Source: Candidatus Omnitrophota bacterium (GTDB taxonomy: Bacteria > Omnitrophota > Gorgyraeia > Gygaellales > Profunditerraquicolaceae). Taken from it: 35,497 bases of DNA. Location of the stretch: positions 1 to 35,497 of the forward strand of contig JBFZAQ010000203.1 in the NCBI GenBank assembly GCA_041308885.1, in the 5' to 3' direction. Of the stretch, positions 3,887 through 28,213 are shown piece by piece; position 1 is the first letter of the stretch; every line of letters starts with the position of its first letter. The position numbers and the translations under genes are program-made. The notes under the pieces were generated by a model. That model was not told the DNA's origin. It searched no databases and saw only the letters and a list, made by a program, of their open reading frames with translations.

Positions 3887-4834
3887 TTAAAACGGGGTTT
3901 TTCCTTGCCTACAGGCCAGATAATCTTCAATGATCGAGCGGTGGTCAAAAGCAAAATTTACGCCGGCTAGTTGATCAAGCTTAACCACGCGCACACCCTT
4001 AGCATCGTCTCCGGCTAATGGCGTGCCCGCAGCCTTAGCGATAAAAACGGTATTAATAGTATGAAAGCGCGGATCACGCTCCGGAGCCGAATAAGTATGC
4101 ATCTGACGAACATCAATGATGTCCAACCCGGTCTCTTCTTTAGCCTCGCGGATAACTGCGCTTTCTAAACTCTCACCATAATCCACAAATCCGCCGGGCA
4201 AGGCCCAACCAAATGGCGGATTACTGCGTTCAATCAACACGATCCCGCCGTCGAGTTCAATAATAGCATCCACGGTAATATAAGGGCCGAAACCCAACTT
4301 CTCGGTAACATAAGTTAAATAACCGATAACCCCCTTGTTGAAGGCGACCAACGCCTCTTGGCCATTCAGGCAGAAAATAATCTCTTTCAGGCTGCGCGCA
4401 TCCCGGCGCGAATACTTATATACTTCCTGCGCCATTATTTTTGCCGAGGCCAATAAGGGGAATCCCCCGGTACCGCAGCCCAGAGCCGGAAAAACAATAG
4501 ACTTAAGTTGCAAGTCTTGCGCGACATTTAAGGCGCTAGCTGCTGCTTGCCGTATTTTATACTCATCGGTTTTAAAATCAAGGCCCATAGTCACAGCATG
4601 GATCACATATCTTGCCGGCAAACTTCCCGCCCCCGACGCCACCGCCGCGCCGATAGCAATCGGGCCTTTATGCACAGCTTCCTCCTCAATAACCGCGCCG
4701 CCAATTCTTTTGATCGCGCCGGCTACGCCGCCGCCCATAACCAACTTATCATTGGCAGCATTGACAATAGCATCGGCTTTTAATTCCGTAATATCCGCTT
4801 TGACTAGCGTAATCTTAATCCCTTTAATTTCCAT
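3887..4834 (-). CDS. macro domain (ADP-ribose binding/hydrolase) fused to a Nudix hydrolase
   Basis: The N-terminal half has [34 protein letters not shown] (macro/Appr-1-p signature). The C-terminal half has the Nudix box [24 protein letters not shown]. The start overlaps the upstream gene by 11 nt. Confidence 0.85.
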
Positions 4835-6855: not shown

Positions 6856-7446
6856 TTACTTAATTTGCCAATCGTAATTTCCGGTTTGCGCATTCAAAAC
6901 TTCTATCGGCGTTCCGGCTGAGGCATTATCCTGCAGCTTTTTAGTGTACATCTTCTGAACCTCGGCAACAGTAATTCCGTTCTTCTGGGAAATCCCCTGA
7001 TAAATAATCATCCGGTCATCATTCTCCTCATTGACTAACTGCTCAACGGCTGCGCTGGCCGCGATCTTATCACGGATCTCAACTAATCCCAATTTATTTT
7101 CACCCACGACACCCTTTTGTTCCCATTCGTTAAGCGCGGCCAATCGGTCACGGCGGCGAAAGGCGGCCTGTTCGATTAGCGGGCTCAATCCGTCTTCGGC
7201 ATAAGCAATGCCTATGATCCCGCGCAAGAAGCTCTGACTGCCTTTAGCGGCCGGGTTATCCCCACCCGAGACTATCGATTCGATATCGTCAATATCCTTA
7301 GCCACATGCTGATAAATATCCAGGCGCATGGAAATATCCACCTTAATCGGATCTTTGGGCGCTTCCACCCGGACCCGGGCGCAACCGATACTAGGTAATG
7401 TCATGATCAGAATAGCGTATAACGTATAGCGGATAGCAGATTTCAT
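6856..7446 (-). CDS. YnbE-like lipoprotein fused to a YdbL-like (DUF1318) domain
   Basis: The leader ends ...LPSIGC. VRVEAPKDPIKVDISMRLDIYQHVAKDIDDIE resembles E. coli YnbE (...VAAPKEPITINMNVKIEHE...). The C-terminal GVVGENKLGLVE...NEENDDRMIIYQGISQKNGITVAEVQKMY...AGTPIEV...G.WQIK resembles YdbL/DUF1318. GGAG lies 6 nt before the ATG. Confidence 0.65.
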   Translation of the reverse strand: MKSAIRYTLYAILIMTLPSIGCARVRVEAPKDPIKVDISMRLDIYQHVAKDIDDIESIVSGGDNPAAKGSQSFLRGIIGIAYAEDGLSPLIEQAAFRRRDRLAALNEWEQKGVVGENKLGLVEIRDKIAASAAVEQLVNEENDDRMIIYQGISQKNGITVAEVQKMYTKKLQDNASAGTPIEVLNAQTGNYDWQIK

Positions 7447-11083: not shown

Positions 11084-11218
11084 ATGTTTTGTGTAATGTG
11101 TTATGTTTAATGTGTAATGCTGGTGTAATGGTTTAATGTGTAATGGAAAAGAATAAATTCCATTACACATTATTTTGCATTAAACCCACATTACACATTA
11201 CACTTTACACATTACACA
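11084..11218. repeat. imperfect palindrome built from TGTGTAA-type heptamers
   Basis: TGTGTAA/TGTGTTA/TGTTTAA/TGTGTAA from 11090. The central perfect 12-bp stem is AATGTGTAATGG (11135-11146) pairing with CCATTACACATT (11160-11171). The right arm repeats CACATTACAC and overlaps the dCMP deaminase stop codon (11212-11214). Confidence 0.85.
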
Positions 11219-11706: not shown

Positions 11707-11936
11707 CTGAAGCGCCGCAGGCGCTGAAGAATTCAACTCGCCGTCATTCTGAGGCCGCAAGGCTTTCTTCGCGCGGGCGGCCGAAGAAACTGACGGCAGC
11801 CTAGATCCCTCGTCGCGCTTCCTGCCTGCCGGCAGGCAGGCGCGCTCCTCGGGATGAGGGAAACGTTAGCGGCGCCTCGGGATGACATAATATCGCTGCA
11901 CTCAGGACGACGCAATATCGCTGCGCAGGATAACAT
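11707..11936. repeat. composite GC-rich repeat block (family-B units plus the perfect 20-bp palindrome CCTGCCTGCCGGCAGGCAGG at 11821-11840)
   Basis: AGCGCCGCAGGCGCT hairpin at 11711-11725. CCGTCATTCTGAGGCCGCAAGG...GGCCGAAGAAACTGACGG at 11741-11797. The palindrome at 11821-11840 is flanked by CGCGCTT/GCGCGCT. It fills the glyA to dCMP-deaminase spacer. Confidence 0.85.
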
Positions 11937-13196: not shown

Positions 13197-13648
13197 CGGC
13201 AAATTTCCTCTTCTATTTTCTTCAGCAGATTGAGCCTGCGGGCGTGGCGGCCTCCGGCAAATTCAGCAGCCAGCCAAAGATCGGCGATCTTGCGCGCAAT
13301 CTTCCCGCTGACAAAACCAGCCCCCAACACCAGAACATTACTATTATTATGCTCCCGGGATAACTGCGCCGCTTGCGGATTACAGCATAAGGCTGCCCGC
13401 ACTCCGGGAAAACGGTTGGCAACAATGGAATTGCCGATCCCGGATTTACAGATCAGGATCCCGCGGCTGTATTTCTTTTGGGAAATCAACTTAGCCAAAG
13501 CAGCCGCATATAGAGGATAATCACAACGATCAACCGAATACGGCCCTAAATCTTTGATTTTGAAGGACTTCTTACTCTGAATATAAGCTTTAAGCTCTTC
13601 TTTTAAGACGTATCCCGCATGGTCCGAAGCTATTAAAATTGGCTTCAT
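13193..13648 (-). CDS. rpiB: ribose-5-phosphate isomerase B
   Basis: [22 protein letters not shown]... and ...[22 protein letters not shown]... fit the RpiB/LacA/LacB family. Confidence 0.9.
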
Positions 13649-14962: not shown

Positions 14963-15094
14963 AAATTACCAATGAGCCAAATCCCAATATCCAATGAATG
15001 GCCAATTTCCAAATCCCAATTGGACATTCCTGCCTGCCTGCCGGCAGGGGTTATTGGAATTTCATTGGGATTTGGAGTTTGAGATTTGGTCATT
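14963..15094. repeat. family-A element, copy A2, with internal CCTGCCGGCAGG palindrome (15037-15048)
   Basis: AAATTACCAATGAGCCAAATCCCAATATCCAATGAATGGCCAATTTCCAAATCCCAATTGGACATTCCTGCCTGCCTGCCGGCAGG, then the inverted arm TTCATTGGGATTTGGAGTTTGAGATTTGGTCATT. It overlaps the purE stop codon (15093-15095). Confidence 0.9.
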
Positions 15095-15583: not shown

Positions 15584-15796
15584 AAATGACCAATGACTAA
15601 ATCCCAATATCCAATGAATGACCAATTTCCAAATCCCAATTGGACATTCCTGCCTGCCGGCAGGCGAAACAAATCCGAATTACGATAATGTCAAATGACA
15701 AAATTCAAATACCAAAATAAATTCCAAATTCAAATTACCAATTTTTGTCATTTGGCATTTGTGCTTATTTTGGAATTTGTGCTTTGTCATTTGAAT
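15584..15796. repeat. family-A element, copy A3 (left module about 94% identical to A2 by eye), followed by a CAAATGACAAA-type palindromic variant
   Basis: 15584-15664 aligns with 14963-15048 apart from a few substitutions and a 4-nt gap. 15688-15796 carries TGTCAAATGACAAAATTCAAATACCAAAATAA and its approximate inverse TTATTTTGGAATTTGTGCTTTGTCATTTGAATTT. It fills the purD to purE spacer. Confidence 0.9.
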
Positions 15797-17158
15797 TTAA
15801 CTATCGAGCGTTCTTCTCCCAATATCCCTACGAAACTGCATCCCCTCAAAACTTAGCGCACCCACTGCCTTATACGTTGTATCTATGGCTTCTTGAATAG
15901 TATTACCTAATCCCGTAACCCCCAACACCCGCCCGCCATTAGTTACGTAATCTGCGTCCTGCGACCGAGCGCCAGCGAGGGAGTCCCGAGCCTCTATCGT
16001 CAACCCGCCTGAAGCGAGGGACGTCATGCGTCCTGCGTCTTTCCTTGTTCCGGCATGAAACACCACCACATCTTTCATCTTCGCGGCAGTATCCAGTCCG
16101 GCTATTACTTTACCCTTTGCATACTCTCCCGGATACCCTTTTGCGGCGCAAACCACGCATACGCAAGCGCGGCTATCCCAATTTAATCCTCCGCTCTTCA
16201 TAAATTTACTCACCCGGCCATCACTTACCGCCAACAGCGCTTCCACAATATCGGATTTAACCCGCGGCATAATGACTTCGGTTTCCGGATCGCCAAAGCG
16301 GGCGTTAAATTCCAAAGTTTTTGGGCCATCCTTAGTCAACATAATCCCCGCATACAAAGCCCCCTTAAATTCTATACCTTCCCGGCTCAAGCCATCAATA
16401 GTCCGATAAATCACTGTATCTAATATCTCTTTGAACAAAATCTCGGTTACTATAGGTGCAGGCGAATAAGCGCCCATGCCGCCGGTATTCGGCCCTTGAT
16501 CGTGGTCAAAAATACGCTTATGGTCCTGGCTAGCTACCAGTGGAATGACTCCTTTAGAATCAGTTAACACAATAATCGAGGCTTCCTGCCCGATAAGACA
16601 CTCCTCAATGATCACCTTATTGCCGGCGCTGCCGAATACCTTATCCTGCATTATCGTAACTACTGCCTGGCGGGCTTCGTCCACGGTTCTGGCCACTATT
16701 ACACCCTTGCCCGCGGCCAAACCATCAGCCTTAACAACACACGGTGCACCAGTTTGCTCAATATATTTTATGGCCCCGGGGGCAGTATCAAAAATCGCGC
16801 AGCGCGCGGTCGGAACTTTATATTTCAGCATCAGCTCCTTAGCAAATACCTTGCTCGCCTCCAGCTGCGCCGCTTTACGATTCGGTCCAAAAACTCTTAA
16901 GCCCTGCTTGCCAAACTCATCCACGATACCCAAAGCCAGCGGCCCTTCCGGCCCGACCACAGTTAAATCTATATGCTCGCGCCGCGCAAATTCCGCAAGC
17001 GCGGCAACATCATCCGCCTTAATATCCACGCACTCGGCCTGCTGAGATATCCCGCCATTCCCCGGCGCGCAGAATATCTTATCCACCAACTTAGACTGCG
17101 CAATCTTCCACACCAGCGCATGCTCCCTACCGCCTGAACCGACAACGAATATACGCAT
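15797..17158 (-). CDS. purD: phosphoribosylamine-glycine ligase (GAR synthetase)
   Basis: MRIFVVGSGGREHALVWKI..., ATP-grasp core, and C-terminal FHAGT...VTNGGRVLGVTG. It carries an in-frame insert of about 30 codons (see 15951-16040). Confidence 0.95.
   Translation of the reverse strand: MRIFVVGSGGREHALVWKIAQSKLVDKIFCAPGNGGISQQAECVDIKADDVAALAEFARREHIDLTVVGPEGPLALGIVDEFGKQGLRVFGPNRKAAQLEASKVFAKELMLKYKVPTARCAIFDTAPGAIKYIEQTGAPCVVKADGLAAGKGVIVARTVDEARQAVVTIMQDKVFGSAGNKVIIEECLIGQEASIIVLTDSKGVIPLVASQDHKRIFDHDQGPNTGGMGAYSPAPIVTEILFKEILDTVIYRTIDGLSREGIEFKGALYAGIMLTKDGPKTLEFNARFGDPETEVIMPRVKSDIVEALLAVSDGRVSKFMKSGGLNWDSRACVCVVCAAKGYPGEYAKGKVIAGLDTAAKMKDVVVFHAGTRKDAGRMTSLASGGLTIEARDSLAGARSQDADYVTNGGRVLGVTGLGNTIQEAIDTTYKAVGALSFEGMQFRRDIGRRTLDS
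15951..16040. repeat. intragenic in-frame repeat insert in purD bounded by TGCGTCCTGCG motifs
   Basis: TCTGCGTCCTGCGACC...GTCATGCGTCCTGCGTCT on the plus strand. It encodes DAGRMTSLASGGLTIEARDSLAGARSQDAD between the conserved HAGT and VTNGGRVLG blocks. Confidence 0.75.
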
Positions 17159-17198: not shown

Positions 17199-17669
17199 TT
17201 ATTTCCTGAAGTTAAATTCTTTTTGCGGCAATCTTTCTCTAATCAACTCTGAAATCTTATGCACAAACTCCTCAGCAATCTTCAAGGCGTCTTTAGCCTC
17301 TTTCATAGAACAAGGAATTTCAGGCTCGTAGATAAACCTGTTTCTTTTCTTCCTCATAAAATCATAATCATTAATAAGCTGCTTAAAGCTATCTCCTAAG
17401 ATTAAACTCGCGAATCTCACAACCGTCGCATGCTTATCCTTTATATCCGGACGGTAACCTTCAATAAACATAAGCGCCAGCCCGGAACGCAACATCGCAT
17501 TATACGCATAATTAAACGCGCATTCTTCGTCCTGGCCTAAGTTTCTTTTGGCAGTCTTAAGATCGACGTAAGCGCGCTTCAACAAATTAAGGATAGATCT
17601 ATCATCAGCAGGGCACTTCTTGATCAAACCATCCTTAAAAAGGGCTTCTTTTGATTCCTTATAAGCCAT
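17199..17669 (-). CDS. HEPN domain protein (putative toxin of a HEPN-MNT pair)
   Basis: A helical protein of about 156 aa with an ...MRKKRNRFIYEPE... block typical of HEPN-family proteins. It overlaps the upstream nucleotidyltransferase gene by 11 nt. Confidence 0.7.
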   Translation of the reverse strand: MAYKESKEALFKDGLIKKCPADDRSILNLLKRAYVDLKTAKRNLGQDEECAFNYAYNAMLRSGLALMFIEGYRPDIKDKHATVVRFASLILGDSFKQLINDYDFMRKKRNRFIYEPEIPCSMKEAKDALKIAEEFVHKISELIRERLPQKEFNFRK

Positions 17670-18234
17670 CTTCTTTACCGACCAGCATTATTTTGGGTCT
17701 CTTTAATAAATCCAAAATGAATCCGCTTCTTGCTGCCTTTTTCGCTTTGTATTCCTGCCAGGAATAAATTGTGGGGTTTATCTCTCTTTTTAGCTTCTTC
17801 TCCAAAATAGAAATCCTTTCATTCACGCAAGAGCTATCCTGATCACCGATAACCATAAGATCGATATCGCTGGCCGAATTTTCTTTTTTTGAGGCAAACG
17901 AACCATAGATGAAAGCGGTTTTTAAACCCTGAATCGATACCAAAGAATTCCTGAGGCTCGCCTCTACCCCGACCGTCTTGGAAACAATACTTTTTAATTC
18001 ATCAAACAAAGGATGGCTTCGGTTAAGGGAATAATAAAGAAGATTACCGACTCTCCGGGTCTTGAATAAATTATCCTTCTGGAATCTCAATAGTTCCCTG
18101 CGGATATTACCGGCAGAATATCCTAATACGCGCTGAAGCTCCCTTAAGTAATATTCCTGAAGCGCATTAGTAAAGAATAAGGCGAGCAGCCCCTGCCTGA
18201 TTTTCGATTTTGCAATATAAAGGCTATCCAGCAT
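17659..18234 (-). CDS. winged-HTH plus minimal nucleotidyltransferase (MNT) domain protein (putative antitoxin)
   Basis: YGSFASKKENSASDIDLMVIGD is the GS-X9-10-D-X-D minimal NTase signature. The N-terminal YYLRELQRVLGYSAGNIRRELLRF is wHTH-like. Confidence 0.8.
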   Translation of the reverse strand: MLDSLYIAKSKIRQGLLALFFTNALQEYYLRELQRVLGYSAGNIRRELLRFQKDNLFKTRRVGNLLYYSLNRSHPLFDELKSIVSKTVGVEASLRNSLVSIQGLKTAFIYGSFASKKENSASDIDLMVIGDQDSSCVNERISILEKKLKREINPTIYSWQEYKAKKAARSGFILDLLKRPKIMLVGKEDGL

Positions 18235-19437: not shown

Positions 19438-20451
19438 CTAAATCAACTGTACTTTCCTTGACCCCTTGACTACAGTGCCGATAATACCGGACTTTAAGCG
19501 TAAACTGGCTAATTTGCGCACTACCGCCTCAGCCGCGCCAACCCGCACAATAAGCACCATCCCTATCCCCATATTCAAAGTATGATACATCTCGTAATCG
19601 GCAATCGCGCCCTTCTCCTGGATCATGCGAAATATTTCCGGCACCGGCCAAGAACCTTTGCGGATAACCACATCCAGGTTATCCGGCAGGATACGAGCAA
19701 TCTTGTCGTAGAAGGCTCCGCCGGTGATGTGGGAGATTCCTTTAATGGTCGATAGTCGATAGTCTATAGTCGATAGTAAAGATAGAATTGGCTTGACGTA
19801 AATTCTAGTGGGTTTAAGTAATTCGGCGCTGTGATTTTTGAGTTCCCTTTCAGATAAAACCTTCCTCACTAAAGAAAATCCGTTGGAATGCAAGCCATTA
19901 GACTCCAGGCCGATCACGACATCACCGGGTTTGATGCCTGAGCCGTCGATAATCCTATCTTTCTCAACTGCCCCGACGCAAAATCCGGCGACGTCGTATT
20001 CGCCGTCACGATAGATATCCGGCATTTGGGCAGTCTCTCCGCCAATTAAAGCGCAGCCTGATTGCACGCACCCTTCGGTTATCCCGCCCACTACCTGAGA
20101 TAATACTCGCGGGGCGACTTTACTAAAAGCAATATAATCCAGGAAAAACAAAGGAACGGCCCCCACGCACAAAATATCATTAACATTCATGGCTACCGCG
20201 TCAATACCGATAGTATCGTGCTTGTTAGCCAGGGCAGCGATTTTCAACTTAGTCCCCACCCCGTCGGCCGAAGAGACCAGAATCGGATTCTTATAGGCGT
20301 TTTTATTAAAGGCAAAAAAAGATCCGAAACCGCCGATATTCTTCAGTACCTCCGGCCGGAACGACTTCTTGACCACGGATCTTAACCCGCGCTTAAACTG
20401 CTCCATCGCCGCAATATCCACCCCTGATTTTTTATAAGTTATACCGGCCAT
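19438..20451 (-). CDS. purM: phosphoribosylformylglycinamidine cyclo-ligase (AIR synthetase)
   Basis: ITYKKSGVDI..., VSSADGVGTKLKIA, GGETAQMP, HITGGAF. It carries an in-frame heptamer tract (19749-19785). Confidence 0.95.
   Translation of the reverse strand: MAGITYKKSGVDIAAMEQFKRGLRSVVKKSFRPEVLKNIGGFGSFFAFNKNAYKNPILVSSADGVGTKLKIAALANKHDTIGIDAVAMNVNDILCVGAVPLFFLDYIAFSKVAPRVLSQVVGGITEGCVQSGCALIGGETAQMPDIYRDGEYDVAGFCVGAVEKDRIIDGSGIKPGDVVIGLESNGLHSNGFSLVRKVLSERELKNHSAELLKPTRIYVKPILSLLSTIDYRLSTIKGISHITGGAFYDKIARILPDNLDVVIRKGSWPVPEIFRMIQEKGAIADYEMYHTLNMGIGMVLIVRVGAAEAVVRKLASLRLKSGIIGTVVKGSRKVQLI
19749..19785. repeat. intragenic heptamer tract TCGATAG x2, TCTATAG, TCGATAG, TAAAGAT in purM
   Basis: Read in 7-nt register. 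It encodes LSLLSTIDYRLSTIKG just upstream of the conserved HITGG block. Confidence 0.85.
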
Positions 20452-20596: not shown

Positions 20597-22060
20597 CTAC
20601 TGAAGATCCCCCTGTCCGCAACAGCGCGCTTCCAACGCGCACTTGCCTTGTTTCTTCTCCGGGGTAACCGGATATTTACCCGACCAACAAGCCGTGCAAT
20701 AATGCGAGGCCGGATGCTTAAAACAGGCTAACATCCCCTCAAGGCTCAAATACCCCAGCGTATCCACGTCCAGATACTGGCGGATCTTATCCAGCGATTC
20801 ATATTTATTGGCGATCAATTCCGAAGAACGGTTAAAATCAATGCCATAGAAGCAGGGAAATCGATGCGGCGGGCAAGAAATCATCAGATGCACTTCTCTA
20901 ACTCCGGCCTTACGCAAATTGCGCACCCTGATCTGCGAGGTGGTCCCGCGCACGATAGAATCATCCACTACCACAATTCTTTTTCCTTTGAGGACATCGG
21001 GCAACAAATTAAATTTAACCCTGACGCTTAGATCCCGGGTATCCTGAGCCGGCTGAATGAATGTCCTACCTACATAGTGATTGCGGATTATCCCCATCTC
21101 CAGCGGAATTCCCGATGCCGCGGAATACCCCAAGGCCGCGGAAAATCCGGAATCAGGCACCGGCACTACCAAATCTGCCTTGATCGGATGCTCCTTAGCC
21201 AGCTGCTCGCCGAGCCGGCGCCTTACCGTATGCACCGTCTGGCCGAAGACAATGGAATCGGGACGGGAAAAATAAACATGCTCAAAGATACAGGAAGCCC
21301 GGCGGTTATGCGGTCGCAACGCTTTAGGCTTGAGGCTGCGTAAGCCGTCATTAGTGATAATCACGGTTTCTCCCGGCTCTACTTCCCGCACATACCGCGC
21401 CCCGATCAGATCAAAAGCGCAGGTTTCCGAAGCTAAACAATAAGCCTTGCCTAATTTACCTAATGCCAAAGGACGAAAACCCAGCGGGTCGCGCACGCCG
21501 ATCAGCTGGTCGGTAGTCATGAACAACAAAGAATAAGCCCCTTTGATCCGCTTCAAGGCATAGAGTAAGCTCTGTTCAAAATTATAAGTCTTAGCCCGGG
21601 CCATCAGATGAATGATGATCTCGGAATCCGTAGTGGTTTGAAAGATCGATCCGCTGGCCTCAAGCGACTGGCGCAATTCTAAAGAATTCACCAAATTGCC
21701 GTTGTGGGCGATACAAATAGAGCCCTTGGCGTAATCAATCAATAGCGGCTGGGCATTTTTTAAAACGCTTGATCCGGTGGTCGAGTAGCGCACGTGCCCG
21801 ACTGCCTTGTCCCCTTTCATCTTATTTAAAAGGGCTTCATCAAAAACTTCGCTGACTAAACCGGTGGCTTTATGAACAGTCAGAACGCCCTTGTGGTTGG
21901 CCACAATTCCGCAGGCCTCCTGGCCGCGGTGCTGCAACGAATACAACCCCAGATACGTCAGCCAACTGGCTTGAGCATGGTTGCTGATCCCGAATAACCC
22001 GCAATATTCCCGCGGCTGAACACCCGGACTACTTCGCACATAGCGCGCTTTTCTCATCAT
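20597..22060 (-). CDS. purF: amidophosphoribosyltransferase (glutamine-PRPP amidotransferase) with propeptide and Fe-S cysteines
   Basis: ...EYCGLFGIS (Cys nucleophile after a leader of about 19 aa), LQHRGQE, HVRYSTTG, AHNGNL, TTDSE, PRTase loop VVVDDSIVRGTT, and C-terminal CTACWSGKYP. The 5' end overlaps the upstream paralogue by 32 nt. Confidence 0.95.
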   Translation of the reverse strand: MMRKARYVRSSPGVQPREYCGLFGISNHAQASWLTYLGLYSLQHRGQEACGIVANHKGVLTVHKATGLVSEVFDEALLNKMKGDKAVGHVRYSTTGSSVLKNAQPLLIDYAKGSICIAHNGNLVNSLELRQSLEASGSIFQTTTDSEIIIHLMARAKTYNFEQSLLYALKRIKGAYSLLFMTTDQLIGVRDPLGFRPLALGKLGKAYCLASETCAFDLIGARYVREVEPGETVIITNDGLRSLKPKALRPHNRRASCIFEHVYFSRPDSIVFGQTVHTVRRRLGEQLAKEHPIKADLVVPVPDSGFSAALGYSAASGIPLEMGIIRNHYVGRTFIQPAQDTRDLSVRVKFNLLPDVLKGKRIVVVDDSIVRGTTSQIRVRNLRKAGVREVHLMISCPPHRFPCFYGIDFNRSSELIANKYESLDKIRQYLDVDTLGYLSLEGMLACFKHPASHYCTACWSGKYPVTPEKKQGKCALEARCCGQGDLQ

Positions 22061-23468
22061 ATACTCCGCTCTTATCCGGCTCTCTGCCGGTCCAGCAATA
22101 GGTGCATAATTTTTCTCCCGGCAAACCGATTGCCGCGATCATGTCGGAAAGCTTCTGATATCGCAGGGTAGTTACCCCCAGATCCTTAGCGATCCAATCC
22201 ACCATCTTTTTATGCTGCGGGGAATCTTCGTCAAGATAAGGCGAAATATCCGTAGCATCTTTACCCTCAATGGCCCGAATAGCCCGTCGGGCTGCCAACT
22301 CGGCCAAGGTCCGGGTAGAACAATTGAATTTACACGGGTACATGAGCGGCGGACAGGCGATCCGCAAATGGATTTGTTTTGCCCCGCATTCCTTAAGCTT
22401 CTGAATGGTATAGTTCTTAAGCTGGGTCCCCCGGACAATGGAATCATCGCAAAAGACGATCATCTTATCTTTAATAATCTCCGGGACGGGGATCAATTTC
22501 ATCTTGGCGATTAGATCGCGCCGCTCCTGAGAGGCAGGGGTATAACTGCGATCAAATCCGGGAGTATATTTTACCAGGGGCCGGCGAAGCGGCACCCCCG
22601 ATTCCATCGCGTAACCTATCGCGTGGGCGGTACCCGAATCGGGTATCCCGGCAACCATATCCGCCGCGGCAGTATCATTCTTAGCCAACATCGCCCCGCT
22701 GCGCTCCCGGGCGACTTCAACATTAATTCCCTCATACGCGGAAGCCGGGACACCGGTATAGATCCATAAAAAAGAGCAGATCTGGTTAGTCTTATTCTCT
22801 TTGCGCCTTTGCTGAACGCCTTTTCCATCAATGAAGATAATCTCGCCCGGGGCAAGAAATTTCCGGATCTTAAAACCCAGATTATGAAACGCTGCCGACT
22901 CGCTGGCCACCGCCCAATCACCGCTTCTTTCCCCAACCACCAACGAAAAATACCCCAACCTATCCCGGGCGGCATATAGGCCTTCTTGAGTGAGTATCAA
23001 CAAGGAACAAGAACCCTCTATCCGGGAAAATAAATACTCTACCCCCTCAACAATGGACTTCCCCTTCAAGATAAGCTTGGCGGCCAACTCCGTCGGGTTT
23101 ACCCGGCCGTCAGCCATCTCGCTGAAAGACTTTCCGTCTTGATATAATTCTTCGGTCAGCTCCCGGGCGTTATCAATAAAACCGTCGGTAACTATGGCAA
23201 AGGAGCCGAATTTGGAATGCATGCACACCGGCTGCTCGTCGTTAGCGCTGATAACGCCGATCCCTTTATTCCCCGGCAAAGATCTGTAATCGCCGTAGAA
23301 TTTGGATTTAAACTGGCTGCCGCGGATATCATGGATCTTGCGTCTTAACTCGGCGCCCCACACGGCCATCCCGGCAAACTGCGTGCCTAAATGCGAATGA
23401 TAATCCGTGCCGTAATAGACATCTTCACCGCAATCTTTTTTTGCCACCACGCCGAATAATCCGCTCAT
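22029..23468 (-). CDS. PurF-like amidophosphoribosyltransferase paralogue with degenerate glutaminase domain (Ser in place of Cys1)
   Basis: MSGLFGVV aligns with (M)CGxxG. HRGQ is replaced by HLGTQ, the VRY(S/P)T Arg is missing (GVISAND), and HNGN is replaced by TDGF. The PRTase loop IVFCDDSIVRGTQ and the CTYCWTG Fe-S-type cysteines are retained. GGAG lies 7 nt before the ATG. Confidence 0.8.
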   Translation of the reverse strand: MSGLFGVVAKKDCGEDVYYGTDYHSHLGTQFAGMAVWGAELRRKIHDIRGSQFKSKFYGDYRSLPGNKGIGVISANDEQPVCMHSKFGSFAIVTDGFIDNARELTEELYQDGKSFSEMADGRVNPTELAAKLILKGKSIVEGVEYLFSRIEGSCSLLILTQEGLYAARDRLGYFSLVVGERSGDWAVASESAAFHNLGFKIRKFLAPGEIIFIDGKGVQQRRKENKTNQICSFLWIYTGVPASAYEGINVEVARERSGAMLAKNDTAAADMVAGIPDSGTAHAIGYAMESGVPLRRPLVKYTPGFDRSYTPASQERRDLIAKMKLIPVPEIIKDKMIVFCDDSIVRGTQLKNYTIQKLKECGAKQIHLRIACPPLMYPCKFNCSTRTLAELAARRAIRAIEGKDATDISPYLDEDSPQHKKMVDWIAKDLGVTTLRYQKLSDMIAAIGLPGEKLCTYCWTGREPDKSGVYDEKSALCAK

Positions 23469-23481
23469 TTAAATACTCCTC

Positions 23482-24306
23482 TTATAATAATTCCCGAGCG
23501 TAAGCTACGCCGTTCTTAAAAATTAATGACCCGTCGGGTGCCCACCGGCATTTTTTACCCGTCCACCGGGGATGCTGGTTCGGTTGGATATGCCGCTCGG
23601 GATGAGGCATCAGCCCAAGGATCCTGCCGGTTTCATCGCAGATCCCGGCGATATGCTCAATAGCGCCGTTAGGATTAATGGGGTAAGAACCAGCCTGGCC
23701 ATGCTCATCGCAATACCGGAACACAATCTGCCCATTTTCCTTAAGCCGTTTTAAAACGAGCGCATCTTGAACCACAAACTTCCCTTCCCCGTGCGCCACC
23801 GGCAAATAGACAACTTCCGGCAAATCCTTTACCCACACGCATTTTACTTGCGTCTTGCGTCTTGCCTGCCTGCCGGTCAGGCAGGCGTCTTGCGTCTTCA
23901 AATAAACCCACCGATCCTCGAATTTCCCCGAATCATTGATAATCAGGCTGGCTTCCTGCCGAAGCTCCGGGTTACCCGGCAGTAATCCGCTTTTAACCAA
24001 TACCTGAAAACCATTGCAGATCCCGATGATCAGCTTGCCATCGGCAATAAAGCGTTTAAGCGGGCCCAAAAGCTTGCCCTTAAGCTCATTGGCCAGAATC
24101 TTACCCGCCCCCAGATCATCACCGTAACTAAAACCACCGGGAAATGCCAAAATTTGGAATTCATCCAGCTCGCGCGCTCCGGAAACCAGGGCATTAACAT
24201 GCACCAGATCGGAATCAGCGCCCGCCTGCTCAAAGGCAAACGCCGTTTCTTGGTCGCAGTTAGTCCCCGCGGCGCGCAATACGCAAACTTGAGGTTTTCT
24301 CGCCAT
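23482..24306 (-). CDS. purQ: phosphoribosylformylglycinamidine synthase I (glutaminase subunit)
   Basis: MARKPQVCVLRAAGTNCDQE..., nucleophile elbow GICNGFQ, and C-terminal MPHPER. I moved the start to ATG 24306; the track extension (to 24384) runs into family-B repeat sequence. It carries an in-frame palindromic insert (23847-23898). Confidence 0.9.
   Translation of the reverse strand: MARKPQVCVLRAAGTNCDQETAFAFEQAGADSDLVHVNALVSGARELDEFQILAFPGGFSYGDDLGAGKILANELKGKLLGPLKRFIADGKLIIGICNGFQVLVKSGLLPGNPELRQEASLIINDSGKFEDRWVYLKTQDACLTGRQARRKTQVKCVWVKDLPEVVYLPVAHGEGKFVVQDALVLKRLKENGQIVFRYCDEHGQAGSYPINPNGAIEHIAGICDETGRILGLMPHPERHIQPNQHPRWTGKKCRWAPDGSLIFKNGVAYARELL
23847..23898. repeat. intragenic in-frame element in purQ: CTTGCGT heptamers flanking a GCCTGCCTGCC/GG(T)CAGGCAGGC palindrome
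   Basis: In 7-nt register it reads CTTGCGT CTTGCGT CTTGCCT GCCTGCC GGTCAGG CAGGCGT CTTGCGT. It encodes KTQDACLTGRQARRKTQVK. The core matches the intergenic palindrome at 11821-11840, 15037-15048 and 15653-15664. Confidence 0.85.
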
Positions 24307-25270: not shown

Positions 25271-28213
25271 TTACCAGCGTAACGGTCTCTGCCAGGCTTC
25301 TTTTAACTGCGCGATATCGGCTTTTACGCACACTTTGCCGTTCAAACCATGGACGGTAAAATATTCCTTATCGGACAGGCAGCCGATTAACCCCAGCGGC
25401 ACGCCGGTTAACGCGCGCTCAAATTCTTTCTGCTTGCTCTTTTCCACTTCCACGATAAATCGCGAATTAGACTCCGAGAACAACAAAACATCATTTCTTA
25501 CGTCCTGCGTCTTGCGTCCTGCGTCTTGCGTCCGGTATGGGATTTCTCCGGCAAACATCTCCATCCCCAGCCCTCCGGCAAACGCCATCTCCGCGGCGGC
25601 CACGGCAATGCCGCCCTCCGAACAATCATGCAGGGAGCTGACCAACCCTAAGGCTGTAGCCCGGTTTAAGGCGGCAAAAATCTTAATCGCCACGCTACAA
25701 TCAACCCGCGGCACGCTGTTGCCCAGCGCCCCAAGCAAAGCATAATACTGCGAACCGCCTAATTCTTCTTTCGTCTCTCCGACGGCATAAATCAGGCCGC
25801 CGGGGCGCTTAGCGTACATGGAAACTGCCTTACGCGCGTCCTCCATCACCGCTATGGCGCTGATCAAGAGCGTCCCCGGGATGGCTAAGGATTTCCCGTG
25901 CTCGGTATATTCATTATATAAACTGTCTTTGCCGGATATAAAAGGCACGCCAAAACCCTTGGCAATATCATAACAGCCATAGGCCGCCCGCACCAAGGAA
26001 CCCAACCGGTCCGGTTTATCCGGATTTCCCCAACAGAAATTATCCAGTATCGCCGCCCGCTCCAGGGAACCGCCTACGGCAATAACCTGCCTCAAGGCCT
26101 CGTCAATACAAGATGCGGCCATCCAATACGGATCTATGCCCCCGAAACGAAAATTTATACCGCAGGAAATAACCAAGCCTTTTACCGATCCAAGTATAGG
26201 CTTAACCACCGCAGCGTCGGAAGGCCCGTCATTGACGATGCCCACTAACGGCTTGATCACCGATTGACCCTGCACTTCATGATCATATTGGCGGATAACC
26301 CACTCTTTGGAACAAATATCATAGCTAGACAACAGCTTCAACAGATACAAGGTCAAATCTTTTTTTAATGGTAATTTTGGCTGTGGATGCCGCTTTTGGG
26401 TAAAGACCGCGATTTTTTTAATATCCGGCAGGCCAGCGTGCAAGAAATCCATATCCAGATCGCCCACCTTGCGACCGGAATAAAATAACTCCAGGCGCTT
26501 GCTCCCGGTAAACTCCCCGATCACTGCGGCCTCAACGTTCTCGCCGGCGAACAAATCCAACAATTCGGCGAGGTTTTCCTTGGGCACGGATAAGATCATC
26601 CGCTCCTGCGACTCGGATATCCAAATTTCGGTATAAGAAAGCCCGCTGTATTTTAAAGGCGCCTTTTCTAGATCAACCCGCACTCCTAAATCCCGGCCCA
26701 TTTCGCCCACGGCGCTGGAGAATCCTCCCGCGCCACAATCAGTAATGGCGTCATATAAATCGCGGTCGCGGGCCTGCAGGATAGCATCCACCATCTTCTT
26801 TTCCTGAATCGGATTGCCGATCTGCACCGCGGAGCTGGAAATAGTTTCGGATTCGTGGGTCAACTCTCCCGACGAGAATGTAGCCCCGTGTATTCCGTCG
26901 CGCCCGGTCCGGCCGCCGACGGCCACGACTAAATCGCCGACCTTGGCGCGCTTAAAAGATTTATCCTTAGGCATGATCCCCACAGTGCCGCAATACACCA
27001 AAGGATTACCCACGAACCGCTCATCAAAAAGTATAGCCCCATTGACCGTGGGTATGCCCATTTTATTTCCGTAATCCCGCACTCCCGACACTACCCCTTT
27101 CATCACCCGCTTAGGATGCAGCGTGCCCTTAGGTAACTTACTAAAGGGATAATCCGGCGGCGCAAAACAAAAGACGTCGGTATTCAAGATCGGCTTAGCC
27201 CCCAAACCCGTGCCTAAGGGATCCCGGATAACCCCGCCTACTCCGGTATTAGCCCCGCCGAATGGCTCCAAGGCCGACGGATGATTATGGGTCTCTACCT
27301 TGAAACAGACATTATTCTCTTTATCGAACTCGATCACCCCGGAATTATCATGGAACACCGAAACGCACCAGGACTTATTCAGATCTTGAGTAACCTTCAT
27401 GATCGTGGATTTTAGAAGATTATCGATTAATCTAGGTTTTAGGTTATAGGTTATAGGTTTTAGCTTACTTAATAACTTTTCCCGATATTCTATTTTTCCG
27501 CGAAAGGTCTTATGCGCGCAATGCTCCGACCAGGTCTGGGCAATAGTTTCCAACTCGCAATCGGTGGGATTGCGCTTTATTTTCTGGAAGTATTTCTTAA
27601 TCATGCGCATTTCCGCTAGATTCAAAAACAACTGCCCAGTCTTACTAATTTCCTGCAGTTTCTTATCCGAGGCACCGATTAAATCTACGGTAATCAATTT
27701 GAATTTAGGCTCGCTTTTTTCTTTTTCCTGTCCCCTGTCCCCTGACCCCTGTCCCCTGACCACATGCTGTATCAATTTATTATACAGCAGCTTCTCCGTA
27801 ATCATCTTAAACTGCGCATCCGTAAGCTTGCCCTCAATTATATATTTCTTCGCCGTCTTAAAAGCAGCAACTCCGTCAATGCCGAGATCGCGAATTCCCT
27901 TAAGCGCTGATTCTTCCACCGGGTCCATGACCCCGGGGTTATAGGCTACCTCCACCACGCGGTCAGCGTTAATTCCGGAAGTTAAAATGGTAGGCCGATT
28001 GATATAGCAGTCTTGAGAAACGGGGTCAACTAACAGCTGGCTGCAGATTGTTGCAACTTGATTTTGGGCAAGCGTTCCGTCTAGAGTATAAACCTGGATG
28101 AACCGGACACCCTTAACCGCCTTTACGCCTAGATCAATAATGTCTTTTTTAACCCCCGCGCCAACCGCGTCAAAAATACCCGGCTTATCGGCAATTTCTA
28201 TTTTCCAAGACAT
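25271..28213 (-). CDS. purL: phosphoribosylformylglycinamidine synthase, PurS-PurS-PurL fusion (PurSL)
   Basis: Two N-terminal PurS-like repeats (IADKPGIFDAVGAGVKKDIIDLG...VRFIQVY and VAYNPGVMDPVEESALKGIRDLG...). The PurL core follows (SEHCAHKTF, VETHNHPS, GNPLVYCGTVG, two AIR-synthase-like halves). It carries three in-frame heptamer tracts. Confidence 0.9.
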   Translation of the reverse strand: MSWKIEIADKPGIFDAVGAGVKKDIIDLGVKAVKGVRFIQVYTLDGTLAQNQVATICSQLLVDPVSQDCYINRPTILTSGINADRVVEVAYNPGVMDPVEESALKGIRDLGIDGVAAFKTAKKYIIEGKLTDAQFKMITEKLLYNKLIQHVVRGQGSGDRGQEKEKSEPKFKLITVDLIGASDKKLQEISKTGQLFLNLAEMRMIKKYFQKIKRNPTDCELETIAQTWSEHCAHKTFRGKIEYREKLLSKLKPITYNLKPRLIDNLLKSTIMKVTQDLNKSWCVSVFHDNSGVIEFDKENNVCFKVETHNHPSALEPFGGANTGVGGVIRDPLGTGLGAKPILNTDVFCFAPPDYPFSKLPKGTLHPKRVMKGVVSGVRDYGNKMGIPTVNGAILFDERFVGNPLVYCGTVGIMPKDKSFKRAKVGDLVVAVGGRTGRDGIHGATFSSGELTHESETISSSAVQIGNPIQEKKMVDAILQARDRDLYDAITDCGAGGFSSAVGEMGRDLGVRVDLEKAPLKYSGLSYTEIWISESQERMILSVPKENLAELLDLFAGENVEAAVIGEFTGSKRLELFYSGRKVGDLDMDFLHAGLPDIKKIAVFTQKRHPQPKLPLKKDLTLYLLKLLSSYDICSKEWVIRQYDHEVQGQSVIKPLVGIVNDGPSDAAVVKPILGSVKGLVISCGINFRFGGIDPYWMAASCIDEALRQVIAVGGSLERAAILDNFCWGNPDKPDRLGSLVRAAYGCYDIAKGFGVPFISGKDSLYNEYTEHGKSLAIPGTLLISAIAVMEDARKAVSMYAKRPGGLIYAVGETKEELGGSQYYALLGALGNSVPRVDCSVAIKIFAALNRATALGLVSSLHDCSEGGIAVAAAEMAFAGGLGMEMFAGEIPYRTQDAGRKTQDVRNDVLLFSESNSRFIVEVEKSKQKEFERALTGVPLGLIGCLSDKEYFTVHGLNGKVCVKADIAQLKEAWQRPLRW
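25497..25533. repeat. intragenic heptamer tract CTTACGT, CCTGCGT, CTTGCGT, CCTGCGT, CTTGCGT in purSL
   Basis: Read in register. It encodes RTQDAGRKTQDV shortly before the conserved LLFSESNSRF block. It uses the same heptamer as the purQ and purD inserts. Confidence 0.85.
27434..27468. repeat. intragenic heptamer tract AGGTTTT, AGGTTAT x2, AGGTTTT, AGCTTAC in purSL
   Basis: Read in register. It encodes (S)KLKPITYNLKPR about 12 residues after the AHKTF motif. Confidence 0.85.
27727..27761. repeat. intragenic heptamer tract CCTGTCC x2, CCTGACC, CCTGTCC, CCTGACC in purSL
   Basis: Read in register. It encodes RGQGSGDRGQ at the boundary between the second PurS-like repeat and the PurL core. Confidence 0.85.

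What the first reader, a model, noticed from the sequence alone, without database searches (positions are those of the whole stretch)
15951..16040. 90-nt in-frame insert in purD bounded by the same TGCGTCCTGCG motif
E. coli PurD has only about ten residues between the conserved HAGT and VTNGGRVLG blocks, as I recall. This gene has about 37: RKDAGRMTSLASGGLTIEARDSLAGARSQDADY. The nucleotide segment begins TCTGCGTCCTGCG and ends ATGCGTCCTGCGTCT. These are direct terminal copies of the heptamer family that also flanks the purQ palindrome and forms the purSL tract at 25497-25533. Between them lies a GC-rich core with two GCGAGGGA(G/C) copies. Three different pur genes therefore carry members of one element family, giving recurrent (K/R)TQDA / RSQDA peptide motifs.
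Basis: partly seen in the sequence, partly recalled or inferred. Interest (0 to 1): 0.65.

Follow-up and report, generated by a model that had tools for sequence, protein, structure and literature searches.

The report
Repeat-built loop insert in purD
The extra 26 amino acids in this purine-synthesis enzyme come from selfish repeat DNA: a run of 7-base repeats later split by tiny hairpin elements, all sitting in frame in a floppy surface loop, a pattern that recurs across this uncultured bacterial phylum.

Summary
purD (15797-17158, minus strand) is intact and carries about 26 extra residues between HAGT and VTNGGRVLG. The organism is an Omnitrophota relative, with best PurD identity about 70%.

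The insert has layers and is not one 90-nt element with terminal repeats.
1. **Heptamer array.** The two TGCGTCCTGCG copies are halves of a (GACGCAR)n array. Removing exactly 60 nt (15962-16021) leaves four heptamers in register. The same unit forms in-frame arrays in purQ and purL.
2. **60-nt core.** It holds one decayed copy (15958-15981) of a 24-nt hairpin mini-element, consensus CCCTCGRCTGCGCTCGGGGCAGGC, a possible truncated copy, and about 25 nt I could not explain.

The 24-nt element has sharp borders. Removing it restores the register of the surrounding heptamer array. Its stem shows compensatory changes around a conserved 12-nt loop. It occurs in more than 120 unrelated metagenome contigs, including in frame in a Patescibacteria secA.

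At this same PurD loop, nine other Omnitrophota loci examined carry heptamer arrays with different units. Seven of them also carry nested hairpin elements. AlphaFold2 gives residues 377-400 pLDDT below 50, at the tip of a beta-hairpin.

My best reading is tolerated selfish DNA, analogous to the cyanobacterial SDR elements found in heptamer repeats. How the elements move is unknown.

The parts
15797..17158 (-). purD (phosphoribosylamine-glycine ligase), intact 453-aa ORF that carries the insert
   Evidence: ORF. Pfam GARS_N/A/C. PDB PurD alignments on both sides of the insert.
16022..16039 (-). 5' half (coding sense) of the heptamer array: GACGCAG GACGCAT GACG. It encodes DAGRMT in the frame used.
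   Evidence: Sequence. 95% identical over 20 nt to the purL array.
15962..16021 (-). 60-nt GC-rich core (68% GC against 51% for the gene). Removing it restores the heptamer register and the reading frame. The boundary is ambiguous by 2 nt because of CG microhomology.
   Evidence: Read directly from the sequence. No stable fold: RNA z-score +1.7. No other copy in the window.
15958..15981 (-). Copy B: decayed copy of the 24-nt hairpin mini-element, CCCTCGCTGGCGCTCGGTCGCAGG. Its last 4 nt overlap the heptamer tract.
   Evidence: It is the only match within 4 edits of the canonical element in 123 kb of Omnitrophota DNA, apart from L001's own copy. Background is 1 such match in 2.6 Mb of control DNA. 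It is 2 edits from the natural variant CCCTCGCTTGCGCTCGGCGCAGG seen in L160 and L193. A tight HMM gives it only 4.8 bits.
15982..16006 (-). 25-nt unexplained spacer, GGGTTGACGATAGAGGCTCGGGACT. It contains GCTCGGGAC, which resembles the element's 3' half.
   Evidence: Sequence only. No match found elsewhere.
16007..16020 (-). Copy A: possible truncated copy, CCCTCGCTT|CAGGC. This equals the CGCTT variant minus its internal 10 nt. It shares TCCCTCGCT with copy B.
   Evidence: Direct repeat AGCGAGGGA at 15974-15982 and 16013-16021. Comparison with the L160/L193 variant. Inference, with weaker support than copy B.
15952..15961 (-). 3' half of the heptamer array: CAG GACGCAG. It encodes (S)QDA.
23847..23900 (-). 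purQ composite: (GACGCAA)2, then the 21-nt palindrome CTGCCTGACCGGCAGGCAGGC (23866-23886), then (GACGCAA)2. It is in frame and encodes LKTQDACLTGRQARRKTQV.
   Evidence: excising 21 nt restores the register. It is an insertion relative to PDB homologues and to L004-L006.
25496..25533 (-). purL in-frame heptamer array (GACGCAR) x5 without any hairpin. It encodes RTQDAGRKTQDVRN.
   Evidence: It is an insertion relative to Thermus PurL and to L004/L005.

Best explanation
The purD insert is a layered deposit of selfish repeat DNA in a structurally permissive loop.

**Step 1, shown by comparison.** A short tandem array of a genome-specific heptamer (GACGCAR, 4 units, net +21 nt or 7 aa) occupies the tip of a beta-hairpin in the PurD C domain. 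Arrays of other heptamers occupy the same tip in most related Omnitrophota.

**Step 2, inferred.** Tiny GC-rich hairpin elements landed inside the array. They belong to a widespread family with the canonical form CCCTCGRCTGCGCTCGGGGCAGGC: 24 nt, a 4-bp stem around a conserved 12-nt loop, and a CAGGC tail. Canonical copies sit directly 3' of a C, usually G(A/T)C, and their removal restores the array register, so no target duplication is seen.

**What remains in purD.** There is one recognisable but mutated copy, one possible truncated copy, and about 25 nt of unexplained sequence, 60 nt in all.

**Step 3, inferred.** Only insertions that keep the frame, lack stop codons and sit in tolerant loops survive in an essential gene. 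The result is therefore translated as a disordered 26-residue extension with no function of its own.

**How the hairpin elements move is not shown.** My preferred guess is trans-mobilisation of a single-stranded DNA hairpin by an HUH/Y1 transposase of the REP-RAYT or IS200/IS605 kind. Those elements also insert 3' of a short target without duplication. I put this at about 35%. An RNA-mediated route, as proposed for cyanobacterial SDR elements, is the main alternative.
For: **The insert and its loop**
- The insert is absent from PDB PurDs.
- The window's loop is the longest of 120 Omnitrophota PurDs: 43 have the short loop and 77 are extended.
- The AlphaFold2 model has residues 377-400 below pLDDT 50, between confident strands 371-374 and 403-406.

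**Heptamer arrays**
- Removing 60 nt restores a 4-unit heptamer register.
- Exact period-7 arrays run at 22.5 per 100 kb in the window (0.02 arrays expected from shuffles, about 0.06 per 100 kb), 10.2 in other Omnitrophota loci and 0.4 in 1.3 Mb of other phyla. No other period between 5 and 12 is enriched.
- The same loop in relatives holds arrays of AGGGGAC, CAAACAC, GTCACAR, AACGACC, AGTTCAG, GGTCAAG, AGTGTCA and AGACACA. L006 has two AAGGATA-like units (my reading of its sequence).
- L001, L002, L003, L006, L204, L205 and L206 also carry nested hairpins there.

**The 24-nt element**
- Unspecified pattern positions are 88-93% conserved at four positions, with A or G at the fifth, and conservation stops abruptly at both ends.
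- Compensatory stems include CCCC/GGGG, CCCT/AGGG, TCCC/GGGA, TCCT/AGGA, TGGT/ACCA and GCCT/AGGC. None of 19 loop motifs in control DNA has 4 or more pairs.
- Excising exactly 24 nt (or 21 nt for the palindrome) restores the heptamer register.
- The canonical form is stop-free in all six frames.
- It sits in frame in secA of a Patescibacteria contig and is absent from the 120 closest SecA homologues.

**Copy B in purD**
- Unique match within 4 edits in 123 kb.
- Background of 1 such match per 2.6 Mb of control DNA.
- 2 edits from a natural variant.

**Indels between orthologues**
- About 15 of the 23 indels of 5 aa or more between the window's proteins and Omnitrophota orthologues are heptamer arrays or hairpins (my classification of the rows).
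Against: - Copy B scores only 4.8 bits (E = 6.7) against an HMM built from canonical copies. Five of its matching bases (GCAGG) are also supplied by the heptamer tract.
- Copy A and the 25-nt spacer are not convincingly explained. A 39-nt local duplication bounded by TCCCTCGCT fits equally well.
- The core has stop codons in two of six frames and no significant fold. As it stands it is not an intact element.
- No other copy of the core exists in the window. No second contig of this genome was available, so copy number in the host is unknown.
- No relative closer than about 70% identity exists in the databases, so there is no strain-level presence/absence test.
- No transposase or reverse transcriptase was found among 22 window genes scanned. 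Mobility is inferred only from distribution.
Confidence: 0.7

Rival explanations
1. One reading: a single mobile element of about 90 nt whose ends are direct copies of the heptamer motif. The same family would have inserted into purD, purQ and purL.
For: The same heptamer flanks the purQ palindrome and the purD core. In L003, two nearly identical 52-nt composites of (CAAACAC)2, palindrome and (CAAACAC)2 sit in purM and purD. This suggests that an array plus a hairpin can be copied together.
Against: - Arrays occur without any core, in purL and in L004, L005 and L207.
- The two flanks join into a register-perfect array once 60 nt are removed.
- The heptamer unit differs between genomes while the hairpins stay the same.
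- The purD core and the purQ palindrome are unrelated sequences.
- In GC-rich hosts the 24-nt element occurs with no heptamers at all.
Confidence: 0.12
2. A purely local origin. The core arose inside the heptamer tract by replication slippage, template switching and a 39-nt duplication. No imported element was involved, and the resemblance to the 24-nt element is chance.
For: The core has an internal direct repeat of TCCCTCGCT spaced 39 nt apart. It has no other copy in the window. The HMM score for copy B is weak. Part of the match overlaps the heptamer.
Against: A match within 4 edits of the canonical element is expected about 7e-5 times in a stretch of this size, from 1 hit per 2.6 Mb. It lies at the very loop where L001, L002 and L006 carry clear copies of the same family. 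The core is 68% GC and bears no resemblance to GACGCAR units.
Confidence: 0.1
3. The extension is an adaptive feature of this PurD, for example a new interaction or regulatory loop. It would be maintained by selection on the peptide.
For: The frame is open and the gene is intact. The loop is extended in 77 of 120 orthologues.
Against: Loop sequences are unrelated between lineages and are simply heptamer translations. The segment is predicted to be disordered. Inserts of the same kind occur in purL, purQ, purM, secA and carA, in either orientation.
Confidence: 0.05
4. The insert is an assembly artefact: a repeat-induced chimera in a metagenome contig.
For: The window is a single metagenome contig, and short repeats can mislead assemblers.
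Against: The insert is exactly in frame and the heptamer register is kept. Analogous inserts occur at the same loop in independent assemblies from JGI, ENA, NCBI and Logan.
Confidence: 0.03

Closest known systems
Small dispersed repeats (SDR1-8) of heterocyst-forming cyanobacteria (Elhai et al. 2008, Genome Res 18:1484). The paper itself could not be read here; its abstract is recalled from memory. PMC4390886 confirms the precise insertion of SDR5 into HIP1.
   Same: - Elements of 21-27 nt with a hairpin supported by compensatory changes.
- Sharply bounded insertions.
- Often embedded in tandem heptamer repeats.
- Copies nested inside copies. Here, CCTTCGACTTCGCTC|CCCTCGACTGCGCTCGGGGCAGGC|AGGGCAGG in five contigs, and a nested pair in L006.
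   Different: - Different phyla: Omnitrophota, Patescibacteria and GC-rich soil or sediment bacteria rather than Nostocales.
- No sequence comparison with the SDRs was possible.
- Here many copies lie in frame inside housekeeping genes.
- One canonical 24-mer is shared by hosts with 36% to 68% GC.
STRR short tandemly repeated heptanucleotides of cyanobacteria
   Same: Short tandem arrays with a 7-nt unit, strongly over-represented in the genome, with several unit sequences per genome.
   Different: The host phylum and the unit sequences differ. In this window at least five arrays lie in frame within coding sequence (purD, purQ, three in purL, and purM), and each adds a multiple of 3 nt.
REP / REPIN elements and intragenic REPs (Di Nocera et al. 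2013, PMC3733652; Bertels and Rainey 2011, PMC3116915)
   Same: GC-rich hairpin repeats of 20-40 nt. Some copies lie inside ORFs of known proteins and are translated. Mobilisation in trans by an HUH tyrosine transposase is proposed for them.
   Different: There is no GTAG or CGTC tag on the 24-nt element. No inverted doublets were seen. No RAYT gene is in view. The association with heptamer arrays is not a REP feature.
Rickettsia palindromic elements (RPE; Ogata et al. 2000, from memory; mentioned in PMC3733652)
   Same: Selfish repeats inserted in frame into conserved protein genes, tolerated in surface regions and translated.
   Different: RPEs are 100-150 nt and restricted to Rickettsia. 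The elements here are 21-24 nt and occur across phyla.
IS200/IS605 family and their gene-less derivatives (PATEs)
   Same: Hairpin-dependent elements that insert 3' of a short specific sequence without target-site duplication.
   Different: Those elements have two distinct end hairpins and are 100 nt or longer. No TnpA is linked to the elements here. The comparison concerns mechanism only.

Membership tests
Cyanobacterial SDR elements | Length 21-27 nt with sharp boundaries | tested here: met
   The canonical element is 24 nt and the palindrome 21 nt. Column conservation collapses at positions -2 and +24. Excising 24 or 21 nt restores the heptamer register.
Cyanobacterial SDR elements | Hairpin supported by compensatory changes | tested here: met
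   Six complementary stem variants surround a conserved 12-nt loop. No such hairpins occur in 1.3 Mb of control DNA. The purD copies themselves have lost most of the stem.
Cyanobacterial SDR elements | Frequently embedded in tandem heptamer repeats and nested in copies of themselves | tested here: met
   Embedded in heptamer arrays in window purD and purQ, L001, L003, L006, L204-L206, L095, L118 and L157. Nested doublets in L120, L128, L129, L185 and L194.
Cyanobacterial SDR elements | Sequence belongs to SDR1-8 and host is a heterocystous cyanobacterium | tested here: not met
   Hosts are Omnitrophota and Patescibacteria.
REP / REPIN (RAYT-associated) | Conserved GTAG or CGTC tetranucleotide at one end of the palindrome | tested here: not met
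   The consensus CCCTCGRCTGCGCTCGGGGCAGGC and its flanks contain neither tag.
REP / REPIN (RAYT-associated) | A RAYT (Y1 transposase) gene in the genome | not testable with these tools
   Only a 35-kb window of the host is available. None of the 22 genes scanned encodes a transposase.
STRR-type heptamer arrays | Tandem 7-nt units strongly over-represented relative to other periods | tested here: met
   Eight exact arrays of 17 nt or more in the window against 0.02 in shuffles. Periods 5, 6 and 8-12 give 0. The rate is about 50 times that in other phyla.
Phase-variable contingency locus (simple sequence repeat) | A long repeat tract in a surface or host-interaction gene, with unit number varying between strains to switch the frame | tested here: not met
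   The tracts have 2-5 units and lie in purine-synthesis genes, with total length fixed to keep the frame. Strain polymorphism could not be tested.
Intein or self-splicing intron | Splicing domains or catalytic RNA structure in the insert | tested here: not met
   The insert is 26 aa or 60-90 nt. There is no Rfam hit in the window and no stable fold.
IS200/IS605-like single-strand transposition | Insertion 3' of a short specific sequence with no target duplication | tested here: inconclusive
   Met for canonical copies: C at position -1 in 110 of 118, G(A/T)C preferred, and the register is restored with no duplication. In purD the junctions are ambiguous. No transposase is linked to the elements.

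The most novel reading that the evidence does not exclude
Hairpin elements of 21-24 nt form an undescribed family of possibly the smallest mobile DNAs, shared across phyla.

- **Hosts:** Omnitrophota, Patescibacteria and GC-rich soil or sediment bacteria. The 21-nt palindrome is also found in viral contigs.
- **Insertion:** they sit 3' of G(A/T)C without target duplication, and they use Omnitrophota heptamer arrays as landing pads.
- **Fit to coding sequence:** their length is a multiple of 3 and the canonical form has no stop codon in any of the six frames. They therefore survive inside essential genes and keep remodelling surface loops of housekeeping enzymes in uncultured bacteria.
Probability: 0.35. 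Interest if true: 0.8.

Novelty: new variant of a known kind. Interest (0 to 1): 0.6.

Why it matters
- **Genome evolution.** A large share of protein length differences in an uncultured phylum would come from non-coding-type repeats written into genes rather than from selection on the proteins. About 15 of the 23 indels of 5 aa or more seen here are of this kind.
- **Annotation.** Peptides such as PSTALGAG, LRLRSGQ, LPDRQAG and KTQDA inside conserved enzymes would be recognised as repeat scars. They would no longer be mistaken for lineage-specific motifs.
- **Mobile DNA.** A 24-nt sequence that is identical in hosts from 36% to 68% GC needs a carrier or a mobilising enzyme. The compact, conserved hairpin makes the search for that enzyme concrete.

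Tried and rejected
- **Core as hairpin or MITE: rejected.** The insert shows no significant fold as RNA or DNA (z = +1.7 and +0.9) and no inverted repeats.
- **Core as degenerate heptamers: rejected.** The two flanks are 74 nt apart, which is out of register, and the core is unrelated to GACGCAR.
- **Second copy of the core in the window: none**.
- **Rfam: no hit** in the window.
- **Six-frame translation of the core against 5.8 billion proteins: nothing found.** The window's own PurD was not recovered either, so the search is uninformative.
- **Tight HMM of the 24-nt element.** It gives copy B only a non-significant score. Support rests on edit distance and controls.
- **Genome-contig scan with PurD.** It returned only 4 Omnitrophota loci. 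The other 76 were used as controls.
- **Plasmids of cultured bacteria:** no significant match to the 24-nt element.
- **IMG/VR viral contigs:** no match to the 24-nt element, but the 21-nt palindrome is found in 30 stretches.
- **Orientation relative to ORFs in metagenome hits: uninformative.** GC-rich contigs have long spurious ORFs on both strands.
- **Literature.** No paper holds the element sequence, its peptides, or heptamer repeats in Omnitrophota. Elhai 2008 is not held.
- **Orthology of the window and L001 copies: rejected.** They are read in different frames and sit in different heptamer arrays.
Full report
**1. The observation**

purD is the 453-aa ORF at 15797-17158 on the minus strand. 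It has all three GARS domains. It aligns end to end with solved PurD structures except for one break: query 1-375 and 405-449 match Aquifex PurD 1-369 and 373-417. So 29 residues stand where Aquifex has three.

The loop between HAGT and VTNGG holds 33 residues, RKDAGRMTSLASGGLTIEARDSLAGARSQDADY.

The 11-mer TGCGTCCTGCG occurs exactly at 15953-15963 and 16027-16037. With one mismatch allowed there are seven hits in the window against 0.57 expected. The other five lie in purQ and purL.

The two AGCGAGGGA copies are at 15974-15982 and 16013-16021.

**2. Host and context**

The best PurD relatives are about 70% identical and are named Candidatus Omnitrophota/Omnitrophica where a name exists. No closer relative exists among 5.8 billion protein clusters, so strain-level comparison is impossible.

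The neighbourhood is ordinary housekeeping:
- pst/phoU, purB, a Band7 gene, purL, a LOG-like gene and purQ;
- two purF-like genes, purM, a second Band7 gene and an NTase/HEPN pair;
- purD, purE, Sua5-LMWPc, rpiB, SHMT, dCMP deaminase and NrdR.

Synteny is shared with relatives. I found no transposase.

**3. The flanks are a split heptamer array**

On the coding strand the region reads:

AAA GACGCAG GACGCAT GACG | 60 nt | CAG GACGCAG AT

Removing exactly 60 nt (15962-16021, ambiguous by 2 nt) gives GACGCAG GACGCAT GACGCAG GACGCAG. That is four units in register and in frame.

The two 11-mers are 74 nt apart (74 mod 7 = 4, 74 mod 3 = 2). They are read in different frames, KDAGR and SQDAD.

The same unit forms two other in-frame features:
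- a five-unit array in purL (25496-25533, RTQDAGRKTQDVRN);
- flanks to a palindrome in purQ (23847-23900, LKTQDACLTGRQARRKTQV).

Both are insertions relative to PDB homologues and to Omnitrophota orthologues.

**4. Heptamer arrays mark these genomes**

| Sequence set | Exact period-7 arrays of 17 nt or more |
|---|---|
| Window | 8 arrays, 22.5 per 100 kb |
| Window, shuffled | 0.02 arrays |
| Seven other Omnitrophota loci | 10.2 per 100 kb |
| 76 PurD loci from other phyla (1.3 Mb) | 0.4 per 100 kb |

Periods 5, 6 and 8-12 are not enriched.

Other in-frame arrays in the window:
- (GGGGACA)n in purL;
- (AACCTAT)n in purL;
- (CTATCGA)n in purM.

**5. The PurD loop is a recurrent deposit site**

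Of 120 Omnitrophota PurDs, 43 have the short loop (HAGTKKSGEKILTNGG type). The other 77 are extended, most often by 6-7 residues, which equals three heptamers. The window's loop is the longest.

| Locus | Heptamer unit at the loop | Nested hairpin element |
|---|---|---|
| L004 | GTCACAR | none |
| L005 | AACGACC | none |
| L207 | AGACACA | none |
| L001 | AGGGGAC | canonical CCCTCGACTGCGCTCGGGGCAGGC |
| L002 | none evident | two degenerate copies of the same family |
| L006 | two AAGGATA-like units (by eye) | T/A-type copy interrupted by GTGGT-TCGACTTCGCTC-ACCAC |
| L003 | CAAACAC | 21-nt palindrome CTGCCTG(A)CCGGCAGGCAGGC |
| L204 | AGTTCAG | the same 21-nt palindrome |
| L205 | GGTCAAG | the same 21-nt palindrome |
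| L206 | AGTGTCA | a third hairpin, CCCCGC...GCGGGG |

The L204 palindrome is identical to the one in the window's purQ.

The heptamer unit is genome-specific. The hairpins are shared between genomes.

**6. The 24-nt element**

I scanned metagenome contigs with CCCTCGNNNGCGCTCGGN{1,2}GCAGG. This pattern was built from the positions where the purD core and L001 agree. The flanks of the hits are unrelated to one another.

*Conservation and borders.*
- Positions left free in the pattern are strongly conserved: C at -1 in 110 of 118, C at 7 in 108, T at 8 in 104, G at 17 in 110, C at 23 in 104.
- Position 6 is A or G.
- Conservation stops abruptly at -2 and +24.

*Hosts and copy number.*
- Host contigs range from 36% to 68% GC.
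- Contigs that carry one copy hold further variant copies. The 618 kb of hit contigs hold 21 extra variants, and 1.3 Mb of control DNA holds none.

*Hairpin structure.*
- Variants change in a Watson-Crick-compensating way around a conserved 12-nt loop, TCGRCNNNGCTC.
- The stems seen are CCCC/GGGG, CCCT/AGGG, TCCC/GGGA, TCCT/AGGA, TGGT/ACCA and GCCT/AGGC.
- None of the 19 loop motifs in control DNA has four flanking pairs.

*Insertion geometry.*
- Where a copy lies in a heptamer array, excising exactly 24 nt restores the register. For the palindrome the figure is 21 nt. So no target duplication is seen.
- Doubled forms such as GCCTTCGACTTCGCTC|CCCTCGACTGCGCTCGGGGCAGGC|AGGGCAGG look like one copy inserted after the GCTC of another.

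*Fit to coding sequence.*
- The canonical form has no stop codon in any of the six frames.
- It lies in frame, in either orientation, in recognisable genes: SecA (L203), CarA (L118) and a terminase-like ORF (L139).
- L203 is a Patescibacteria contig by its SecA relatives. None of the 120 closest SecA homologues (up to 83% identity) has the eight extra residues.

*Where it was not found.*
- No significant match among plasmids of cultured bacteria.
- No match in IMG/VR viral contigs. The 21-nt palindrome is present in 30 viral stretches.

**7. The 60-nt core of purD**

On the coding strand the core, shown with its first flanking base, reads:

T CCCTCGCTTCAGGC GGGTTGACGATAGAGGCTCGGGACT CCCTCGCTGGCGCTCGGTCGCAGG

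*Copy B (15958-15981).*
- It is the only match within four edits of the canonical element in 123 kb of Omnitrophota sequence, apart from L001's own copy.
- Such matches occur once in 2.6 Mb of control DNA.
- It is two edits from the natural variant CCCTCGCTTGCGCTCGGCGCAGG found in L160 and L193.
- Its stem has mostly decayed.
- A tight HMM built from canonical copies gives it only 4.8 bits.
- Its last bases overlap the heptamer tract.
- I rate its membership as likely but not proven.

*Copy A (16007-16020).* It equals the same variant with its internal 10 nt missing. It shares TCCCTCGCT with copy B.

*The remaining 25 nt* are unexplained.

*Alternative parse.* The core could be a single copy that suffered a 39-nt duplication or insertion bounded by TCCCTCGCT. 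I cannot tell the two parses apart.

*Present state.* The core is 68% GC against 51% for the gene. It has stop codons in two unused frames and no significant fold. It is a decayed relic rather than an active element.

**8. Structure**

An AlphaFold2 model built with 40 homologues has mean pLDDT 83 and pTM 0.83. Residues 377-400 fall below pLDDT 50, between confident strands 371-374 and 403-406. The insert extends the tip of a beta-hairpin in the C domain.

**9. Mechanism**

*Shown:* the layered anatomy, the recurrence of such deposits at this loop, and the properties of the element family.

*Inferred:* the order of events (array first, hairpins later), selection as the filter that leaves only in-frame, stop-free loop insertions, and the neutrality of the peptide.

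*Not shown:* how the hairpins move. Three features recall REP/RAYT and IS200/IS605 single-strand transposition:
- the absence of target duplication;
- insertion after a short G(A/T)C-like sequence;
- dependence on a hairpin with a conserved loop.

An RNA-mediated route, as proposed for SDR elements, is the alternative. How heptamer arrays arise and why their unit is genome-specific is also open.

Most units here contain GAC, GTC or TTC. This would make arrays multi-copy targets and could explain the association.

**10. Comparison and novelty**

The closest known system is the SDR elements of Nostocales. These are 21-27 nt hairpin repeats, often inside tandem heptamer repeats and nested in themselves (Elhai 2008, recalled from memory). 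SDR5's precise insertion into HIP1 is confirmed in PMC4390886.

Intragenic REPs (PMC3733652) and Rickettsia RPEs are precedents for translated repeat insertions.

The case here differs in four ways:
- the host phyla;
- the routine in-frame residence in housekeeping genes;
- the lack of REP tags;
- the cross-phylum identity of the 24-mer.

I found no description of these elements, or of heptamer arrays in Omnitrophota, in the searchable literature. That search is limited.

**Verdict.** The feature is real. I class it as a new variant of a known kind, of moderate to high interest mainly because of the wider element family it exposes.

Noticed in passing
window 11800-11860: An intergenic GC-rich imperfect hairpin lies between the dCMP deaminase and SHMT genes. 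The 20-nt palindrome CCTGCCTGCCGGCAGGCAGG is embedded in outer arms CCCTCGTCGCGC...GCGCTCCTCGGGATG. RNA fold is -36.2 kcal/mol, z = -1.9. A second CCTCGGGATGAC half-site follows at about 11876. It looks like a composite of the two hairpin families.
   Followed up: partly
window 14975-15051 and 15585-15669: A repeated intergenic module of about 70 nt (aatcccaatatccaatgaatgRccaatttccaaatcccaattggacattcctgcctgcc...) lies in the spacers on either side of purE: between the Sua5-LMWPc gene and purE, and between purE and purD. It consists of degenerate heptamers ending in the CCTGCC...GGCAGG palindrome. It may act as a terminator-like unit.
   Followed up: partly
window 27727-27761, 27433-27467, 19748-19777, 7412-7441: Further in-frame heptamer arrays with other units: (GGGGACA)n and (AACCTAT)n in purL, (CTATCGA)n in purM, and (ATAGCGG)n at the N-terminus of ORF 6856-7446. 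Several are indels relative to orthologues.
   Followed up: partly
L203 5879-5902; L118 about 1337-1360; L139 about 13404-13427: The canonical 24-nt element lies in frame in SecA of a Patescibacteria contig (36% GC), in CarA, and in a terminase-like ORF. The SecA insert is absent from the 120 closest homologues.
   Followed up: partly
L006 about 11100-11170 (PurD loop): Nested hairpins: CCCTTCGAC[GTGGTTCGACTTCGCTCACCACGAGT]CGCTCAGGTCAGGC. One element sits inside another, and they share the same 12-nt loop with different stems.
   Followed up: no
L003 994-1018 (purM) and 4130-4152 (purD): Two nearly identical 52-nt composites of (CAAACAC)2, palindrome and (CAAACAC)2 lie in two genes of one genome. 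Both share the rare CCTCGCCGG variant. This suggests that an array and a hairpin can be copied together.
   Followed up: partly
window 17199-18234: An NTase/HEPN gene pair (a toxin-antitoxin-like module) is inserted between the Band7 gene and purD. It is present here and in L001 but absent at that position in L002, L003 and L207.
   Followed up: no
window 20597-23468: Two adjacent purF-like genes. The second (22029-23468) has the glutamine amidotransferase domain but no phosphoribosyltransferase Pfam hit at E <= 1e-5.
   Followed up: no
L208-L237 (IMG/VR): The 21-nt palindrome CCTGCCTGNCCGGCAGGCAGG occurs with sharp borders in 30 stretches of viral contigs of 39-69% GC. Some contigs hold two or three copies.
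   Followed up: no
P0118 residues about 125-133; P0146 and P0155 (SecA): Other short low-complexity inserts appear in relatives: TEGGSASGG in the N domain of one PurD, NPEGVLLSAPSHGAR at the same SecA site as in L203, and PPTSALVGG elsewhere in another SecA. They may be further repeat scars.
   Followed up: no
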